Assembly: GCA_003009755.1 (NCBI GenBank) | Contig: PXUB01000001.1 | Coordinates: forward strand, 1 to 64,000 | DNA: 64,000 nucleotides | DNA from: Thermoplasmatales archaeon SW_10_69_26 | Lineage (GTDB): Archaea; Thermoplasmatota; SW-10-69-26 | Reading direction: 5' to 3' | Shown: positions 1,360 through 42,090 of the stretch, in pieces | Numbering within the stretch: position 1 is the stretch's first letter | Layout: every line of letters begins with the position of its first letter | Notes under the pieces: model-generated | The model's input: the letters and a program-made list of their open reading frames with translations, nothing else | Told to the model about the DNA's origin: nothing | Databases searched by the model: none | Position numbers and translations under genes: made by a program

Positions 1360-1581
1360 TCAGGTGCCCTGCAGGCCGGTGACGTCGTAGCCGAGCTGTT
1401 CGACGCTGTCGCGGATCCGGTCGGCGTCGGAGGTGCCGGCCTGGACGTCGACCGCGGCCGTGCCTTCCTCGTGGTCGGCGTCGACGCGTTGGACGCCCTC
1501 GAGCTCGCCGACGTTCTCCTCGACCCGCGAGGCGCACCCGTCGCACATCATCCCGTCGATCGTGAGGCGGACCGTAGGCAT
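1360..1581 (-). CDS. Heavy-metal-associated (CopZ-like) metallochaperone
   Basis: MPTVRLTIDGMMCDGCASRV, GMxCxxC motif, about 73 aa. Confidence 0.85.
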   Translation of the reverse strand: MPTVRLTIDGMMCDGCASRVEENVGELEGVQRVDADHEEGTAAVDVQAGTSDADRIRDSVEQLGYDVTGLQGT

Positions 1582-1629
1582 CGTGCGGCTGATGGGCTCC
1601 CTGGCCAAAGGTGTTGCTCGCTTCTCGTC

Positions 1630-36064: not shown

Positions 36065-39000
36065 TCAGCCTCCGGCCACGCGGTCGACGGTGCGGGAGCC
36101 GCCGGGGTCCAGCTGGTCGAGGGCGTCGGCGAAGGCGCTTGCGTCGGGGTAGCGGTCCTCGGGGTCGCGGGCCAGGGCCTTGGCGAGGACCTCGTTGACG
36201 GCGGCGGGGACGCCGTCGATCGGGAGCCGGACGTCGCGTTCGATCAGCTCCTCGGGGGGAGGCGTGGTGTCGGTCTGCAGGCCGAGGTGGTGCTCGCCGG
36301 TGAGGAGGTTGTAGACGAGGGCGCCGGCGGCGTAGACGTCGGCTTGGGGACCGGGCGGGTCGCCGAGGAGTTGTTCGGGCGCCATGTAGCGCGGCGTGCC
36401 GACGAAGGCGTCCTCCTGTCCGGGCGGTTCGTCGCGGCGGACGGCGACGCCGAAGTCGGTGATCTTGGCGGTCCCGTCGGGGGTGAGCAGGATGTTGGAG
36501 GGCTTGAGGTCGCGGTGCACGATGCCGGCCTCGTGGAGGGCAGCCAAGCCGTCGAGCACCTCGGCGGCCATCGGCAGGGCCTGTTTGGTCTCCATCGCCT
36601 GGTCGGTGCGGTCGGCGAGCGTGCCGCCCTCGATGTACTCCATGACGAGCAGCAGCCGGCCTTCCTCCTCGATGACGTCGTGCACGACGACGACGTTGCG
36701 GTGCTGGAGGTTGGCGGCGGTCTTGGCCTCGTGCAACAGGAGCTCGCGGGCGTCGGCGCCGACGTTCTCGAGGTCCTTGAGGACGACGTCGCGCTCGAGC
36801 ACGCTGTCCTCGGCGAGGTAGGTCGTGCCGAACCCGCCCTCGCCGAGGACGCGTTCGACGCGGAAACGGTCCACCTTGCGTGGCATGAAGCCGTGGGCAA
36901 CGGTGGCGCTGCCGTCGTCGGCGGCGACCGGCGAGGCGCTGGCGGGGCTCGTGGAGAACTCGGTGGGTCCGGTCCCGGTCCCCGTCTCCTCGCGGCGGCG
37001 GTGGTACCAGATGCCACCGGCGGCGGCGAGCCCGAGCAGTACGGCCAAGCCGAGGCCGCCGGCGAGGTAGGGGTTGTCGCTGGCGGCGCGTGTGGCGAGC
37101 GTCAGGGGGCTGGGCTCGGAGATGTCGAAGGTGCGCTGGACCTCTTCGCCGCTGGCGGGCGAGACGAGCGCGCGGTCGGGGTCGGCGGTCTCGGCGACGA
37201 TGGTGCCCGTGAACGAGCGGGGGGCCTCCGGCACGAACGAGAGCATCACGGTCCGGTTGGCGGGTTCGCCGGCGCGGAGGTTGACGTCCTGGACAGCCAA
37301 GGCCTGCGAGCCCGAGCGCAACGAGAACCGCAGGGAGACGTCGCCGGGCGGGTCGTCGCCGGTGAGGGCCAACTCGATCGTGCTCGTCGTGCCGGCCTCG
37401 AGGTCGGTGTCGGTGACGGTCCACGTGACGTGGGCCGGGGCTGGTCGGACGTCCAAGGCGAGGGGGGTCGGGTCGGAGCCGACCGGCGCCATCAGGATAG
37501 CATCCGAGCGGTCCTGGTCGGCTTCGACGAACAGCTGGCCCTGTTCGCGCGGTTGGAGCACGATCTCCTCGGGGCCGCCCGGCACGACGGGGGCGTTGGG
37601 TTCGACCGTCATCGTGCGGCCGATGCCGTTGGCGACGGTGATCTCGGCCAGCGAGCCGCGCGTGAAGGACAGCTGGGCGGGCACGGTGCAGACGTCGGCG
37701 GGGCAGTCGCCGCTGAACGTGGCCACGGTCTCGTTCCGCCAGGCCTGCTCGCTGGGGGAGAGCACGGTGCGTTGGCGGGTGGCGTTCAGGTCGCCGTCGG
37801 AGACGTGCAGCGTGACGTTGTAGACGCGGGGGGCCTGGCCGGGCAGCGTAAGCCACGCGCCGGTCTGGCCGCTGTCGTCGTCGACGGACCACCAGTAGGT
37901 CAGGTCCTCGTCGTCGGGATCGCTGGTCTCGTTGGCGGTCAGGGCCAAGCGACCGTCCTCGGTGGCCCGTTGCGTGATGCTGGGTTGAGGGGGGAGGTTG
38001 ATCTCCATCGTCCGCGAGGCGGTGACCTGGGAGGAGCCGTCGTCGACGGTGAGGTGGATGGTGTGGTTGCCGGAGGTGGTGAAGCGGTGGGTGACGGTGG
38101 AGCCTCGCTTGACCGGGCCCTCGTCGAAGCGCCAGGTGTAGGTGAGCGGGGAGCGGTCCGGGTCCTGGGACCCGCGGGCGTCGAAGACGTGGCCTTCGCC
38201 CTGCTGCCACGCGACGGTGAACTGGGCTTCGGGGGGTCGGTCCTTGCCCAGCATGCGGAGCTCGCCGTCGGGGCCGGCCCAGAGGACGCCGCCACCGTCG
38301 GCGATCGCGATGCCGGTCGGGATCTGCGAGCAGCCGGAGGGGGTCAGCGTCTTCGTCCACCGGGAGTCCAGCAACCGACGGTCCTGGTGGGGGTGGCCGA
38401 CGAGGGAGCGGATGACGGCCACGCCGCGCTCGGCCGAGCAGACGTCGGCGAGGTAGATGTCGCCGTTGGCGTCGACGGCGGGTTGGCCGAGGAGGGGGCC
38501 GAACACGTTGCCCAGTGACTTGATGTGGGCGCCGCCGAGCGTGACGATGTGGATGGACCCGCCGGCGTCGACGATGAACACGGGCTGGCTGCCGTCGGCG
38601 CCCCATCCGACGGTCGGGGCCGCGTAGATCTGGCCGTCGAGCTCGGAGCCGGGCCGTTCGGCGTCGCCGGTGCGCCAGGCGACGTCCCCGCTGGCTCGGT
38701 CCACGGCGACGACCTCTTCGTCCCCCATGACGAGGGCGATCGACGAACCGGGAGCCAGGGAGACGCCGCGCGGCGTGCAGTTGCAGTCGATGCGATCCTC
38801 GACGCTGAGCGAGCCGGCGGAGAGCTCGACGATGCCGCCCTCCTGGATGGCGACGATCGTGTCGTCGTTGTCGACGGCGACCGGGGGGCCCGGCGTGGGG
38901 CCCGGCGTCGAGGAGAGGGGCGGATCGTAGTTCGTCGGCTCCTGGAGGCTGCGCTCGTCGACGATGTCCCCCTGGGTGGTGACGGCCAGCACCGTCCAGG

Positions 39001-39856
39001 GCTCCCGGACGGTGTAGATCCGGCCGTCGGGGTCGACGACGGGGCCGGAGAGCAGCTCGCGGTCGCCGTCGATCTCGGTCTGCCAGGCCTCGGCGCGTTC
39101 CGGGTTGACGCCGCGGAGCTCGCCGTCGCCGGTGGCGGCGATGACCAAGCCCTCGGGCGTCGAGGCGGGCGGGAACGGGACCGAGGATCCCAGACGCAGT
39201 GGGGGGTCCCACAGCGGGTCACCGTCGGAGGTGAACCGGTAGGCGAGCCCGCTCCAAGTGATGGCGGTCACGTTGCCGTCCTCGTCGACGATCGGGTCGT
39301 GGAACGGCTGGTCGTCGGAGGAGCGGGCCGACCATCGCACGAGGTCGACCTGCTGGGGGCCGATGTTGAGCGATCGGCCGGAGTGCTGGGCGTCGGCGCC
39401 GTGCTGGGGCCAGGCGGGGCCGAGGCCGCCGGCGACGGGCTCGTCGGCGTGGACGAAGAAGATCGTGGAGCTGGAGCCGGTGATCTCGAGCTCGGTCGCG
39501 TTGTTGCCGGTGTCGTTGCGCGCGCTGTCGACGCTCACCGAGTGCAGCCCGGGTTGGGTCTGGGAGGGCAACGGGACGTCGATCGTGCCGGTCACGAGCG
39601 AGGAGCGGTCGGAGACGAGCGTGCGCGAGATCGAGGAGGCTTGCCGGCGGTCGTCGGGGTTCTCGACGCCGACGGTCACGTTGAGCCGGTCGACCGTCGT
39701 GTTGATCGTGAGCTGGACCTCGATCGTGGCGTCGGAGGGCCCGACGACGAGGGGCGTGGCCTGCATCTCGACGACCGCGACCTCGTCGGAGGACTGGGCC
39801 GCGGCCGGAGCGGAGAACAGCGTTCCTGCGGCCAAGAGGGCGAGGACCAACGTCAA
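36065..39856 (-). CDS. Receptor-like Ser/Thr protein kinase (PQQ-type propeller + PKD ectodomain, TM, Hanks kinase)
   Basis: Signal peptide; WPQHGADAQHSG and Trp-containing repeats; FDARGSQDPD…YTWRF PKD; TM then RRR; LGEGGFG, HRDLKPSN, DFG, GTPRYMAPE. Confidence 0.92.
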   Translation of the reverse strand: MTLVLALLAAGTLFSAPAAAQSSDEVAVVEMQATPLVVGPSDATIEVQLTINTTVDRLNVTVGVENPDDRRQASSISRTLVSDRSSLVTGTIDVPLPSQTQPGLHSVSVDSARNDTGNNATELEITGSSSTIFFVHADEPVAGGLGPAWPQHGADAQHSGRSLNIGPQQVDLVRWSARSSDDQPFHDPIVDEDGNVTAITWSGLAYRFTSDGDPLWDPPLRLGSSVPFPPASTPEGLVIAATGDGELRGVNPERAEAWQTEIDGDRELLSGPVVDPDGRIYTVREPWTVLAVTTQGDIVDERSLQEPTNYDPPLSSTPGPTPGPPVAVDNDDTIVAIQEGGIVELSAGSLSVEDRIDCNCTPRGVSLAPGSSIALVMGDEEVVAVDRASGDVAWRTGDAERPGSELDGQIYAAPTVGWGADGSQPVFIVDAGGSIHIVTLGGAHIKSLGNVFGPLLGQPAVDANGDIYLADVCSAERGVAVIRSLVGHPHQDRRLLDSRWTKTLTPSGCSQIPTGIAIADGGGVLWAGPDGELRMLGKDRPPEAQFTVAWQQGEGHVFDARGSQDPDRSPLTYTWRFDEGPVKRGSTVTHRFTTSGNHTIHLTVDDGSSQVTASRTMEINLPPQPSITQRATEDGRLALTANETSDPDDEDLTYWWSVDDDSGQTGAWLTLPGQAPRVYNVTLHVSDGDLNATRQRTVLSPSEQAWRNETVATFSGDCPADVCTVPAQLSFTRGSLAEITVANGIGRTMTVEPNAPVVPGGPEEIVLQPREQGQLFVEADQDRSDAILMAPVGSDPTPLALDVRPAPAHVTWTVTDTDLEAGTTSTIELALTGDDPPGDVSLRFSLRSGSQALAVQDVNLRAGEPANRTVMLSFVPEAPRSFTGTIVAETADPDRALVSPASGEEVQRTFDISEPSPLTLATRAASDNPYLAGGLGLAVLLGLAAAGGIWYHRRREETGTGTGPTEFSTSPASASPVAADDGSATVAHGFMPRKVDRFRVERVLGEGGFGTTYLAEDSVLERDVVLKDLENVGADARELLLHEAKTAANLQHRNVVVVHDVIEEEGRLLLVMEYIEGGTLADRTDQAMETKQALPMAAEVLDGLAALHEAGIVHRDLKPSNILLTPDGTAKITDFGVAVRRDEPPGQEDAFVGTPRYMAPEQLLGDPPGPQADVYAAGALVYNLLTGEHHLGLQTDTTPPPEELIERDVRLPIDGVPAAVNEVLAKALARDPEDRYPDASAFADALDQLDPGGSRTVDRVAGG

Positions 39857-39995
39857 GGTCGCCGCGCCGTGGCGAGCTCGTGCGCGCGGGTGCAGGATGG
39901 CTGTGCCCCTCCCAAGCCCATTCCGACGGGGAGGACGTAACGTTTGCGGTCCCGGCCTCCGGCTCTCGGGGCCTCAGGGGGCCCGCAGGGGCTCA

Positions 39996-40312
39996 GCCGT
40001 GGGAGAGGGAAGGGATGACCCGGCCCCACGACGGGACCCGCTGCCGGCACCCAGGCGAGCGCGAGCTCCCCAGGCCCCGGCAGCGGGGGGATGCACACTG
40101 TGCGTATCGTCGATGGGATGTGGGATGGGACGGGTCGGGAGCCGGGTGGGCTTGGTGCCCACCGCCGCGATGGGCGTGTTGTATTTCAAAGCCGTGAAAG
40201 CTGACGAGAGGGAACGCCAACAGCCGGTTGCACGGTCTTCGGACGTTCAGATCGGACGTTTCCGTCGACACGGGAACCCCGTTCCAAGCGACGTCCTTCA
40301 CGACGTAGCCCC
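39996..40312 (-). repeat. Tandem repeat unit A (upstream element + TATA + structured RNA)
   Basis: Aligns with 40417-40678 apart from a hairpin insertion at 40037-40087. Confidence 0.9.
40000..40165 (-). ncRNA. Candidate structured ncRNA, copy A
   Basis: Downstream of TTTGAAATA; 5' hairpin, closing stem with covarying pair, CU-rich 3' tail. Confidence 0.55.
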
Positions 40313-40416
40313 CGACGACCGCGGGTCGATCGAGGGACGAGCTGCGACGCTGACGCCGGCGAGGAGCGGGAGCAAGCGCCTCCAGCTCCCCGACGAGAGG
40401 GGAACCTGCAAGCGTG

Positions 40417-40678
40417 GCCGTGAGAGGAGAAGGATGGCCCGGCCCCACGACGCGGAGGGATGCACTGTGCGTACCGTCGATGGGATGTGGGATGGGACGG
40501 GCCGGGAGCCGGGTGGGCTTGGTGCCCACCCCCGCGATGAGGGTGTTGTATTTCAAAGCCGTGAAAGCTGACAGCAGGATACGCCAACCGCCGGTTGCAA
40601 GGCTTGTCGACGTTCAGACGCGGCGTTTCCGCTGACAAGCGAACCCCGTTCCAGGCGGCCTCCTTGACGATGTAACCC
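40417..40678 (-). repeat. Tandem repeat unit B
   Basis: Second copy; near-identical core 40459-40572, more diverged upstream part. Confidence 0.9.
40420..40532 (-). ncRNA. Candidate structured ncRNA, copy B
   Basis: Same fold as copy A without the inserted hairpin. Confidence 0.55.
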
Positions 40679-40874
40679 GGCTCAGCGGTGGGCCCATCTT
40701 CCACTCCGAGCGGTGGATCGCAGCCCGGGCACCGCCGATGCAAGGCGAGGTGGTTGGGGTCGCAGCGGGCCACGAAGCGGGCGAGCCACGCCCGTGGTTG
40801 CCCGATGCAGCTGCTCGTGAGGCTAGGCTATCGTCCATCGCTTCCGGGGCCTCTCCCCAGCCGACGAGGGGCCC

Positions 40875-41639
40875 TCAGGGGTTCCGGAAGAGGAGCAACG
40901 AGCGCCCGACGCCGATCACGTCGCCGTGGGTGAGCTCGACCTCGTCGCCGCCGCGCAGCTCCTGGTCCCAGTTGACGATGGTGCCGTTGAGGCTCTCGGC
41001 GTCGCGCAGGCGGAACGTGCCGCCTTCGTGGGTGAGGACGGCGTGCTTGCGCGAGATGAACAGGTCGTACTCGAGGGGGACGTCGACCTCCTCGCCGCCC
41101 ACCTGGCGTTCGCGGCCGACCAGCCACTCCATCGGTTCGGCCTTGCTCCGCAACGGGAACACGCGGCCCTCGCGGATCCCGCGGATGAGGATGAGCTGGG
41201 CGAGCGCGTCCTCGGTCTCGGGGGTCTCGGGCTCGGATTGCTGGACGCGCGTGCGGTCGGGCACGCCGCCGGCGGCGGACTCCATGGCGAGGTTGCCCAG
41301 CGTGCGGACCTCCTCGAGCACCATGAACAGGTGGTCCTCGCGGGCGTAGTACTCCTTCGTGTGGCTGCCTTCGCCCTGGGCGACGCGGGTCTCGACGAGG
41401 TCGACCTCCTCGAGCTTGTCGATGTGGCTGAGGATCGCTTGACGGGTGAGGGGGATCTCGCGGGTGTCGCTCTCGGCGTCCTTGGACGTCTCCTCGCGGT
41501 AGGCCTCGATCTCGCCCACGTTCTTCGGTGTGGTGAGCTGGCGGAGGATGTCGAGGCGTTGGCGGTTGCCGAGCGCGGAGAGGACCAGGGACAGGCGCTC
41601 GGTGTCCACCTTGCCACCGGGGGATTGGGGATCCGGCAT
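40875..41639 (-). CDS. ArsR-like HTH + FHA domain transcriptional regulator
   Basis: LSALGNRQRLDILRQL…LTRQAILSHIDKLEEVDLV winged HTH; FHA motifs VGR, ISRKH, SLNGT, LTHGDVIGVG. Confidence 0.88.
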   Translation of the reverse strand: MPDPQSPGGKVDTERLSLVLSALGNRQRLDILRQLTTPKNVGEIEAYREETSKDAESDTREIPLTRQAILSHIDKLEEVDLVETRVAQGEGSHTKEYYAREDHLFMVLEEVRTLGNLAMESAAGGVPDRTRVQQSEPETPETEDALAQLILIRGIREGRVFPLRSKAEPMEWLVGRERQVGGEEVDVPLEYDLFISRKHAVLTHEGGTFRLRDAESLNGTIVNWDQELRGGDEVELTHGDVIGVGRSLLLFRNP

Positions 41640-41788
41640 CGCGCTGGCAAGGGGACAGGGAGGGTTTCGGTGTTTCGGGTGGGTACGGGGTGGACCGAAC
41701 AGATGGCGGACCGCTCTCGGACCTGGGAACCGCCGGTCCCCGTGATGGTCTCTCCCGACGCAAGGGGGAGACTGACCGCGAGGGAGAC

Positions 41789-42090
41789 ATGCTAGATCTG
41801 CGGTGGGACCGACGAACGGCGAACGATGGAGACCGCCCGCGGGACCGCAACCGTCGGACGTTGACCGTGTGCGAGGCCTGCCTGGGCCAGCGCACCGCCA
41901 AGCGCTGGCACGCCGACGGCAGCAAGAGCTATCGGTGGGCCGAAGCTTCGACCGAGACACCGCACGCGCATCCGCAGGATCGCTACGCCTACCTGGCGGA
42001 CGCCGATGAAGTGAGCCTGGTCCGTCTCCAGCAGGCCTGGATCGACACGCACGCCGCCACGGCCTCGCGCCGGAACGAACGAGTTAACCG
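41789..42090 (+). CDS. Small hypothetical protein with CxxC, divergent from the FHA regulator (3' end uncertain)
   Basis: GAGGGAG SD-like site before ATG; VCEACL; frame stays open to 42280, overlapping the next gene. Confidence 0.35.

What the first reader, a model, noticed from the sequence alone, without database searches (positions are those of the whole stretch)
39996..40678. Tandem pair of candidate structured ncRNA genes, each with its own promoter, inside a kinase-FHA locus
Seen: the roughly 1-kb gap between the HTH-FHA gene and the kinase holds two diverged copies (39996-40312, 40417-40678). On the minus strand each reads: about 120 bp of partly conserved upstream DNA, TTTGAAATA (40182-40190; 40549-40557), a perfect hairpin GGUGGGC-ACCAA-GCCCACC, a closing stem G(A/G)CCCG-UCCCAU / GUGGGG-C-CGGG(U/C)C, an inner CGACG/CGUCG stem, and a CU-rich tail. 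The closing stem has a compensatory double change (A-U at 40135/40018 in copy A, G-C at 40502/40437 in copy B). Copy A carries an extra self-contained hairpin (11-bp perfect stem, 40037-40047/40077-40087) inserted at a junction. The imperfect pairs are G-U on the minus strand but A-C on the plus strand. Single-stranded parts repeat AUCCC 4-5 times. Inference: two paralogous small RNAs (about 165 and 112 nt), perhaps protein sponges or antisense regulators. I recognise no known RNA family. Only one covarying pair from two copies supports this.
Basis: partly seen in the sequence, partly recalled or inferred. Interest (0 to 1): 0.9.

Follow-up and report, generated by a model that had tools for sequence, protein, structure and literature searches.

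The report
Tandem candidate small RNA genes, Thermoplasmata
Between a signalling-regulator gene and a receptor kinase gene of an uncultured archaeon lie two copies of what looks like a new, C-rich small regulatory RNA gene with its own promoter, kept at the same place in all related genomes, but no expression data could be obtained.

Summary
Two diverged copies (85% identical) lie on the minus strand between the HTH-FHA gene (41960-40875) and a receptor-like Ser/Thr kinase gene (39856-36065), and nowhere else in the 2.8-Mb genome.

Each copy has a rare archaeal TATA-like box resembling those before this genome's tRNA genes. An invariant pyrimidine-GGGC follows 21-22 nt later, which I infer to be the start site (about 40160 and 40527).

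Single copies occur at the same place in all 5 other genomes of the family. None was found in 145 other genomes of the phylum, apart from one weak hit to a differently placed RNA-like element. No Rfam family matches.

The closing helix found in 7 of 7 copies is (A)CCCGGC(U)CC with GGGGYCGGG(U). Its "compensatory pair" fails in 3 of 7 copies, and covariation is not significant.

Support for an RNA comes from:
- sense-strand-only folding stability;
- G-U pairs on this strand;
- unrelated hairpins inserted at two fixed sites;
- an invariant unpaired UCCCAUCCCA;
- a CU-rich tail like the tracts after tRNA genes.

Most likely these are two paralogous trans-acting sRNA genes of about 165 and 110 nt. 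Their function and any link to the kinase are inferred.

The parts
40875..41960 (-). HTH-FHA gene (upstream neighbour)
   Evidence: Pfam FHA E 5.7e-13; weak HTH_20 hit, E 0.0023, below the cutoff. Orthologues of 63-78% identity lie directly upstream of the element in 4 of 5 family genomes. In G002 the best orthologue is on another contig, and a run of N lies upstream of the element.
40558..40700 (-). Copy B: partly conserved upstream DNA (TGGAAC / GGAAAC / TGCAAC-like motifs)
   Evidence: Alignments. Inferred to be regulator-binding DNA; not tested.
40549..40557 (-). Copy B: TATA-like box TTTGAAATA
40417..40527 (-). Copy B: predicted RNA of about 110 nt. Inferred start G40527 (+/-3). 5' hairpin 40527-40524 with 40518-40515. 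Closing helix 40514-40501 with 40451-40437. Invariant UCCCAUCCCA 40497-40488. CU-rich tail 40436-40417.
   Evidence: Folds (z = -2.27); CM R2 scores 122.9 bits. Both ends are inferred.
40191..40312 (-). Copy A: partly conserved upstream DNA
40182..40190 (-). Copy A: TATA-like box TTTGAAATA
39996..40160 (-). Copy A: predicted RNA of about 165 nt. Inferred start G40160 (+/-3). 5' hairpin 40160-40157 with 40151-40148. Closing helix 40147-40134 with 40032-40018 (U40028 bulged). Invariant UCCCAUCCCA 40130-40121. GUGCAUCCC 40096-40088. Inserted hairpin 40087-40037. CU-rich tail 40017-39996.
   Evidence: Folds (z = -5.15; antisense -1.15); CM R2 scores 96.2 bits.
39933..39950 (-). Separate promoter-like box of the kinase gene (ACCGCAAACGTTACGTCC)
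   Evidence: Conserved in all 6 genomes. It resembles the GCAAA/CGAAA + ..TTA.. boxes before this genome's tRNA genes.
36065..39856 (-). Receptor-like Ser/Thr kinase gene (downstream neighbour): signal peptide, PQQ and PKD ectodomain, C-terminal Pkinase
   Evidence: Pfam. Orthologues lie directly downstream of the element in 5 of 5 family genomes; the G004 and G005 genes are cut by contig ends. The ectodomain was found only in this family: 6 of 6 genomes against 0 of 15 others in the class.

Best explanation
Each copy is a free-standing gene for a C-rich structured small RNA, on the minus strand. Copy A is about 165 nt and copy B about 110 nt. The pair arose by tandem duplication in this genus.

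Proposed transcription. It starts about 22 nt after an archaeal TATA-like box, at the first G of an invariant Y-GGGC. It ends in a CU-rich tract just after the closing helix.

Proposed fold:
- a short 5' hairpin;
- a 10-14 bp long-range helix, (A)CCCGGC(U)CC-CGAC paired with GUCG-GGGGYCGGG(U);
- inside that helix, an unpaired conserved C-rich stretch (invariant UCCCAUCCCA, with 3-4 AUCCC/UCCC units);
- lineage-specific hairpins inserted at two fixed sites.

Proposed mechanism (inferred). The unpaired UCCC-type motifs and the CU-rich tail pair with G-rich ribosome-binding or start regions of target mRNAs and block initiation. This is how UCCC-motif sRNAs of staphylococci work.

Proposed control (also inferred). 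The conserved DNA upstream of the TATA box may be bound by the adjacent HTH-FHA protein, which would put the RNA under control of the neighbouring kinase.

Status of each step:
- Shown: conservation, promoter-like box, strand-specific fold, non-coding nature.
- Inferred: transcription, both RNA ends, the targets, and the link to the kinase.
For: 1. Conservation. CM searches find the element in 6 of 6 family genomes. It is single-copy in the other 5. It always lies upstream of the orthologous kinase.
2. Promoter. YTTSAWATAS occurs 5 times in 2.8 Mb, and 2 of these are here. Real tRNA genes of this genome carry similar boxes 24-30 nt upstream. Y-GGGC lies 21-22 nt after the box in 7 of 7 copies.
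3. Separate kinase promoter. The kinase gene has its own conserved BRE/TATA-like box.
4. Fold. The same closing-helix register is the minimum-energy one in 7 of 7 copies, with 97% of cells paired. Sliding the partner by 1-3 columns gives 33-46%. Sense z-scores are -5.15, -2.27, -3.43, -3.38, -3.16, -0.67 and -0.65. Antisense z-scores are -1.15 to +0.77.
5. Strand. The changes in the helix are G-C to G-U and U-G to C-G, which are legal only on this strand.
6. Inserted hairpins. Unrelated stable hairpins sit at two fixed sites in different genomes.
7. Non-coding. Indels of 2, 7 and more nt lie in the most conserved part. The two copies are 367 nt apart, which is not a multiple of 3. No Pfam hit on any overlapping ORF.
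8. Tail. The CU-rich tail (UUCUCC-like) resembles the TTCT tracts that begin immediately after 8 of 27 tRNA genes read.
9. Ribosome binding. The 16S 3' end carries CCUCC, so Shine-Dalgarno-led initiation is available.
10. Precedent. Unpaired UCCC motifs that bind Shine-Dalgarno sequences, together with a 5' hairpin and a 3' terminator, are described for Rsa RNAs (PMC2790875; passages read).
Against: - No expression evidence of any kind.
- Covariation is not significant. Only 1 of 18 pairs changes on both sides, and 22-27 of 500 shuffles reach the observed score.
- Two of 7 copies (genus g4) fold no better than shuffles, and they lack the 5' hairpin.
- The C-tract repeats allow several alternative registers, so the helix is partly a by-product of composition.
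- No oligo-U terminator is present.
- Duplex energies with the 5' regions of the kinase and FHA genes are ordinary: 7 of 8 tests lie at 17-89% of the background and 1 lies at 4.3%.
- Complements of the invariant motif in the genome are few and unremarkable.
- The fixed position before the kinase gene also fits a cis-acting role.
Confidence: 0.55

Rival explanations
1. Cis-acting leader. The element is the promoter plus a long structured 5' leader or attenuator of the kinase gene. The closing helix and CU tract would act as a conditional terminator that sets read-through into the kinase ORF.
For: Same strand and always directly upstream of the orthologous kinase in 5 of 5 other genomes. The element and the kinase ectodomain have the same distribution: 6 of 6 in the family, 0 of 15 elsewhere in the class. 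A helix followed by a pyrimidine tract looks like a terminator.
Against: A separate, conserved BRE/TATA-like box lies between the element and the kinase start in all 6 genomes. The spacing from the element to that box varies, from about 50 nt in copy A to about 160 nt in the other genomes (read by eye). Copy B is followed by another promoter and copy A, not by a gene. The look-alike element in sister families has changing neighbours.
Confidence: 0.15
2. DNA-level element only. This would be a conserved regulatory region: binding sites, a promoter for something else, or a run of 7 G3-tracts on the plus strand able to form a G-quadruplex (or an i-motif on the minus strand). There would be no functional RNA product.
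For: The closing-helix strands and the C-rich core are almost invariant rather than covarying. The two copies are 2 of only 8 places in the genome with 7 or more consecutive C3-tracts with loops of 7 nt or less, among 370 runs listed. About 130 bp upstream of the TATA box is also conserved between genera.
Against: The strand asymmetry in folding z-scores, the G-U-only changes, and the inserted hairpins that keep their stems at fixed sites all point to an RNA. The TATA-like box and the fixed Y-GGGC spacing imply transcription through the element.
Confidence: 0.12
3. Protein-titrating RNA. The RNA is made as described, but it acts by sequestering a protein that binds single-stranded C-rich motifs (for example a KH-domain protein; this is recalled, not tested) through its 3-4 AUCCC repeats. 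It would not act by pairing with mRNAs.
For: There are 3-4 AUCCC units per copy in 7 of 7 copies, and 0 on the opposite strand. No convincing antisense target was found. The gene is duplicated in this genome.
Against: No candidate binding protein was identified or tested. Only one repeat block (UCCCAUCCCA) is invariant, and the number of other units varies. Known sponges present their motifs in hairpin loops, whereas here they lie in one long unpaired stretch.
Confidence: 0.12
4. Neutral leftover. A recent tandem duplication of intergenic DNA with no function of its own.
For: Only 2 copies exist, side by side.
Against: The element is conserved across 4 genera whose kinase orthologues are only 42-48% identical. 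Blocks stay invariant inside otherwise unalignable intergenic DNA.
Confidence: 0.03

Closest known systems
UCCC-motif sRNAs of staphylococci and bacilli (RsaE/RoxS and other Rsa RNAs; PMC2790875, passages read)
   Same: Size of about 100-165 nt. A 5' hairpin. Several unpaired UCCC-type motifs in the most conserved part. A 3' helix followed by a pyrimidine tract. The proposed action is pairing with G-rich ribosome-binding sites.
   Different: The host is an archaeon with a TATA-box promoter. There is no sequence or structure match to any Rfam family, RsaE included. The motifs lie in one long loop clamped by a long-range helix, not in hairpin loops. No target, expression or probing data exist.
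C-rich-loop RNA-like element found here in sister families f2 and f6 of the same class (loci L068, L069, L070, L072, L073, L080)
   Same: A TATA-like box, a long closing helix, an unpaired C-rich core (CCCAUCG units; 41-48% C), a CU/U-rich tail, and a length of about 100 nt. The two types do not co-occur in any genome searched. The f1 model hits the G019 copy (30.6 bits), with a 29-nt stretch of the core that I counted by eye as about 24 of 29 identical in that alignment.
   Different: The reciprocal model does not find the window's element (0 matches at that place at E <= 1). The f2 type has an extra hairpin P2 and real covariation. Its neighbours change, and it reaches 5 copies in one genome. 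Homology is unproven.
Bacterial signalling systems that drive an adjacent or dedicated sRNA (GacS/GacA-RsmY/Z, LuxO-Qrr; recalled, not looked up here)
   Same: A sensor kinase, a DNA-binding regulator and a small RNA gene with conserved upstream DNA are clustered. The RNA gene can be duplicated.
   Different: Here the sensor is a Hanks-type Ser/Thr kinase and the regulator an FHA-HTH protein, in an archaeon. No step of such a pathway was tested.

Membership tests
Any Rfam 15 family | Covariance-model score at or above the family's gathering score | tested here: not met
   0 matches at gathering score in the whole window. Only 2 noise hits at E 6-10 in 39800-40900. 0 matches at E <= 1 in 10 homologous or look-alike loci.
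Free-standing archaeal sRNA gene (generic) | Own promoter (BRE/TATA) at the right distance from a start site | tested here: met
   The TATA-like box is rare in the genome (5 sites) and similar to the tRNA promoters. Y-GGGC follows 21-22 nt later in 7 of 7 copies. This is sequence evidence only. The expected spacing is recalled knowledge.
Free-standing archaeal sRNA gene (generic) | A discrete transcript is detected | not testable with these tools
Free-standing archaeal sRNA gene (generic) | Non-coding | tested here: met
   Frame-breaking indels lie in the conserved blocks. The copy offset is 367 nt. Overlapping ORFs have no Pfam hit.
Free-standing archaeal sRNA gene (generic) | Secondary structure supported by covariation | tested here: not met
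   1 of 18 pairs changes on both sides, and 22-27 of 500 shuffles do as well. Support is thermodynamic and strand-specific only.
UCCC-motif (Rsa-type) antisense sRNAs | Unpaired conserved UCCC motifs | tested here: met
   The invariant UCCCAUCCCA is unpaired in the minimum-energy fold of 7 of 7 copies. There are 3-4 AUCCC units per copy.
UCCC-motif (Rsa-type) antisense sRNAs | Pairing with ribosome-binding sites of targets | tested here: inconclusive
   The neighbouring genes' 5' regions pair no better than background, except one of 8 tests at 4.3%. Genome-wide complements were not interpretable.
f2/f6 C-rich-loop element of the same class | Reciprocal covariance-model match | tested here: not met
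   R2 finds the G019 copy at 30.6 bits (E 0.002 for that genome). R3 finds nothing at the window's element.
Cis-regulatory leader or riboswitch of the kinase gene | Continuous with the regulated ORF, with no promoter in between | tested here: inconclusive
   A conserved promoter-like box lies in between in 6 of 6 genomes. Transcript ends are unknown.
Dispersed or mobile repeat | Many copies scattered in the genome, or presence on phages or plasmids | tested here: not met
   Only the 2 adjacent copies exist. No match in 50,697 phage records or 72,556 plasmid records.
G-quadruplex-forming tract (plus strand) | 4 or more G3 tracts with short loops | tested here: met
   7 tracts within 36 nt in both copies, which puts them among the 8 richest places in the genome. 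Actual formation is not testable here.

The most novel reading that the evidence does not exclude
An archaeal Hanks-type signalling module drives its own small RNA. The extracellular-sensing Ser/Thr kinase would act through the phosphothreonine-reading FHA-HTH protein. That protein would bind the conserved TGGAAC-containing DNA upstream of the TATA box and switch the sRNA gene(s) on or off. The RNA's clamped UCCC-rich loop would then silence a regulon at its ribosome-binding sites. It would also be the diverged local form of a class-wide family of C-rich-loop RNAs. This would be the archaeal counterpart of two-component-system-to-sRNA circuits such as GacA-RsmZ.
Probability: 0.1. Interest if true: 0.8.

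Novelty: new member of a known kind. Interest (0 to 1): 0.5.

Why it matters
Very few regulatory RNAs are known from Thermoplasmatota, and none from this uncultured high-GC lineage. Four searches of the held paper library found none, and Rfam has no match.

This candidate has a clear promoter, a definable fold and an invariant unpaired motif. It sits in a fixed position between a phospho-signalling regulator and a receptor-type kinase. That gives a concrete, testable entry point into two questions:
- how archaeal Ser/Thr-kinase/FHA signalling reaches gene expression;
- whether the C-rich "anti-ribosome-binding-site" strategy of Gram-positive sRNAs also exists in archaea.

The look-alike element found in sister families shows real covariation and deserves its own follow-up.

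Tried and rejected
**Known RNA family.** Rejected. Rfam gives nothing at gathering score or at permissive E-values.

**Mobile or dispersed repeat.** Rejected.

**Coding region.** Rejected. Pfam finds nothing on the overlapping ORFs, and indels break the frame.

**More homologues.**
- The genome contigs pattern scan gave 21 hits. Only 2 are archaeal records holding the element. The other 19 are high-GC bacteria and I take them as chance matches.
- The gapped metagenome pattern matched 6 of the 7 known copies in a local test. In the metagenome collection it gave only 2 hits, both unrelated by eye.

Tested and found inferior.

**Homology with the f2/f6 element.** The match goes one way only, so this is left open.

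**Pairing with the neighbouring genes' 5' regions.** No signal above a background of 400 random windows. An earlier run with 3000 windows timed out.

**Complements of the invariant motif.**
- Exact 10-mer: 4 hits, of which 2 are the element itself.
- 9-mers: 20-22 hits.
- 8-mers next to an ATG: many hits, mostly internal Met codons. Nothing interpretable.

**Structured RNA in the conserved upstream block.** No stem conserved between genomes was seen by eye.

**Literature.** Four searches found nothing on such an RNA. Of PMC7565180 I saw only the search listing and the start of the abstract. Of PMC2790875 I read passages. Supplements were not consulted.

Full report
**Setting**

Three features lie on the minus strand:
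- an FHA-domain gene at 41960-40875 (Pfam FHA E 5.7e-13; a weak HTH_20 hit below the cutoff);
- a 1018-bp gap;
- a 1263-codon gene at 39856-36065.

The large gene has a signal-peptide-like N-terminus, PQQ and PKD domains, and a C-terminal Pkinase domain (E 5.3e-48). That makes it a receptor-type Ser/Thr kinase.

**The observation**

The gap holds two copies of one unit.
- 40452-40678 matches copy A at 85% over 229 nt, and 40417-40452 matches at 87%.
- Nothing else in the 2.82-Mb genome resembles the unit.
- It has no match in the phage or plasmid collections.

**Relatives**

BLAST found the unit in 2 of 60 relatives. A covariance model of its 5' half found it in all 5 other genomes of the family and in 0 of 15 other genomes of the class. 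A full-length model found it in 6 of 6 family genomes, counting the window's own. Among 145 other genomes of the phylum it gave only weak hits, the best at E 0.002.

Each relative has a single copy. It always lies just upstream of the orthologous kinase, which is 42-48% identical. The kinase genes of G004 and G005 are cut by contig ends. In 4 of 5 relatives the element also lies just downstream of the orthologous FHA gene. In G002 a run of N lies upstream and the best FHA orthologue is on another contig.

The kinase ectodomain has the same distribution as the element: 6 of 6 in the family and 0 of 15 elsewhere in the class at E <= 1e-30. These genomes are kin, so this is not independent evidence.

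Wider scans added nothing. A genome-contig scan gave 21 hits, of which only 2 are archaeal. A gapped metagenome scan gave 2 hits, both unrelated by eye.

**Promoter**

The box reads YTTSAWATA(C) in 7 of 7 copies. The motif YTTSAWATAS occurs 5 times in the whole genome, and 2 of these are here. Bona fide tRNA genes of this genome carry similar boxes (CTAAATAC, CTCAAATAGG) 24-30 nt upstream.

A pyrimidine followed by GGGC lies 21-22 nt after the box in all 7 copies. From recalled knowledge of archaeal promoter spacing and the pyrimidine-purine initiator, I place the starts at about 40160 and 40527, give or take 3 nt.

The kinase gene has its own conserved box, (A)CCGCAAAGGTTAGGAC-like, in all 6 genomes. 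It is of the GCAAA/CGAAA + TTA type seen before tRNA genes. The element therefore looks like a separate transcription unit.

**Structure**

Three findings come from adding the relatives.

Only GGGC/GCCC is kept in three genera, and genus g4 lacks the hairpin altogether.

- *A different closing helix fits all copies.* The helix shared by all copies pairs (A)CCCGGC(U)CC with GGGGYCGGG(U). Most copies extend it with CGAC/GUCG.
  - It is the minimum-energy register in 7 of 7 copies.
  - On a model-fitted alignment 97% of its cells pair. Sliding the partner by 1-3 columns gives 33-46% for the whole structure.
  - Its few changes are G-C to G-U and U-G to C-G.
  - In G002 an extra 5'-strand base pairs with the U that is bulged in the other copies.

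The structure therefore rests on other evidence:
  - Sense-strand z-scores are -5.15, -2.27, -3.43, -3.38, -3.16, -0.67 and -0.65. Antisense z-scores run from -1.15 to +0.77.
  - G-U pairs are legal only on this strand.
  - Unrelated, stable hairpins are inserted at two fixed sites, before and after a conserved GUGCAUCCC, in different genomes.

Inside the closing helix lies an unpaired C-rich stretch with the invariant 10-mer UCCCAUCCCA. After the helix comes a CU-rich tail.

TTCT tracts begin directly after 8 of the 27 tRNA genes I read. On that basis I infer that the tail is this lineage's termination signal.

**Non-coding**

Indels of 2 and 7 nt lie in the best-conserved blocks. The two copies are 367 nt apart, which is not a multiple of 3. 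The overlapping ORFs have no Pfam hits.

**A look-alike in sister families**

The full-length model's best outside hit (G019, 30.6 bits) fell on a different conserved intergenic element. That element is present in 5 of 5 genomes of genus g5, with 5 copies in G013, and in one genome of family f6.

Its architecture:
- a TATA-like box;
- a 12-19 bp closing helix whose sequence differs between genomes with compensatory changes (6 of 24 pairs change on both sides; 8 of 500 shuffles do as well);
- an extra hairpin;
- an unpaired CCCAUCG-rich core;
- a U/CU-rich tail.

Its neighbours change from genome to genome: 3-hydroxyacyl-CoA dehydrogenase, an ACT-HAD protein, thiolase, flagellin.

The architecture and composition are alike (41-48% C), and the two types never co-occur in the genomes searched. 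But the reciprocal model does not find the window's element. Homology is possible and unproven.

**Function**

No target could be shown.
- Duplex energies of the loops and tails with the 5' regions of the kinase and FHA genes are ordinary. One of 8 tests lies at 4.3% of the background and the others at 17-89%.
- Genome-wide complements of the invariant motif are few and uninformative.

The 16S 3' end carries CCUCC, so G-rich ribosome-binding sites are available as targets.

The nearest working analogue is the class of UCCC-motif sRNAs of staphylococci. Their unpaired UCCC motifs bind Shine-Dalgarno sequences and block initiation, and they have a 5' hairpin and a 3' terminator (PMC2790875, passages read). 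I commit to that mechanism as the most likely one. A protein-titrating role, a cis-acting leader and a DNA-only element (7 G3-tracts on the plus strand) are the rivals.

Control by the adjacent HTH-FHA protein through the conserved upstream DNA is an attractive inference without direct support.

**What could not be done**

**Verdict**

This is a real, conserved, lineage-specific element. Most likely it is a tandem pair of genes for a new C-rich small RNA. Its fold and its covariation claim are not.

Noticed in passing
L068:1553-1653 (+), L073:1551-1650 (+), L070:1488-1591 (+), L072:1462-1567 (-), L069:1460-1570 (-), L080 about 1495-1600 (+): A separate structured RNA-like family in sister families f2 and f6. 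It has a long closing helix with compensatory changes, a hairpin, an unpaired CCCAUCG-rich core and a U/CU-rich tail. There are up to 5 copies per genome and the neighbours vary. No Rfam match.
   Followed up: partly
window 36065-39856 (-): The kinase has a eukaryote-like receptor topology: N-terminal signal peptide, PQQ and PKD ectodomain, C-terminal kinase domain. Its ectodomain was found only in this family (6 of 6 genomes against 0 of 15 others in the class).
   Followed up: partly
window 39919-39921 and 39854-39856 (-): An ATG about 17 nt after the kinase promoter-like box is out of frame with the kinase ORF, whose first listed start is TTG at 39856. In G001 the equivalent ATG is in frame. 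This could be an assembly frameshift, a short upstream ORF, or a different real start.
   Followed up: no
G001-G005, many contigs: The family's genomes carry 6-12 matches to the HTH-FHA protein, and many of them lie next to Pkinase genes. Only the orthologous pair studied here has the RNA-like element beside it.
   Followed up: no
window 40191-40330 and 40558-40700; L034:1620-1747; L049:1380-1511: About 130 bp upstream of the TATA-like box is conserved between genera (TGGAAC, GCAGGC, TTGCGGATGG-like blocks). Copy A has GGAAC-GGG-GTTCC as a 5-bp inverted repeat. These may be regulator-binding sites.
   Followed up: partly
own genome, downstream of tRNA genes, e.g. C27:6231, C38:41575, C29:7056, C9:19072: Several tRNA genes are followed directly by TTCTC... 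and a long inverted repeat ending ...GAGAA. This recurring trailer hairpin has no known meaning to me.
   Followed up: no
window 40115-40150 and 40482-40517: Seven consecutive C3-tracts lie within 36 nt (G3-tracts on the plus strand). These two places are among only 8 in the genome with 7 or more tracts, so a G-quadruplex or i-motif is possible.
   Followed up: partly
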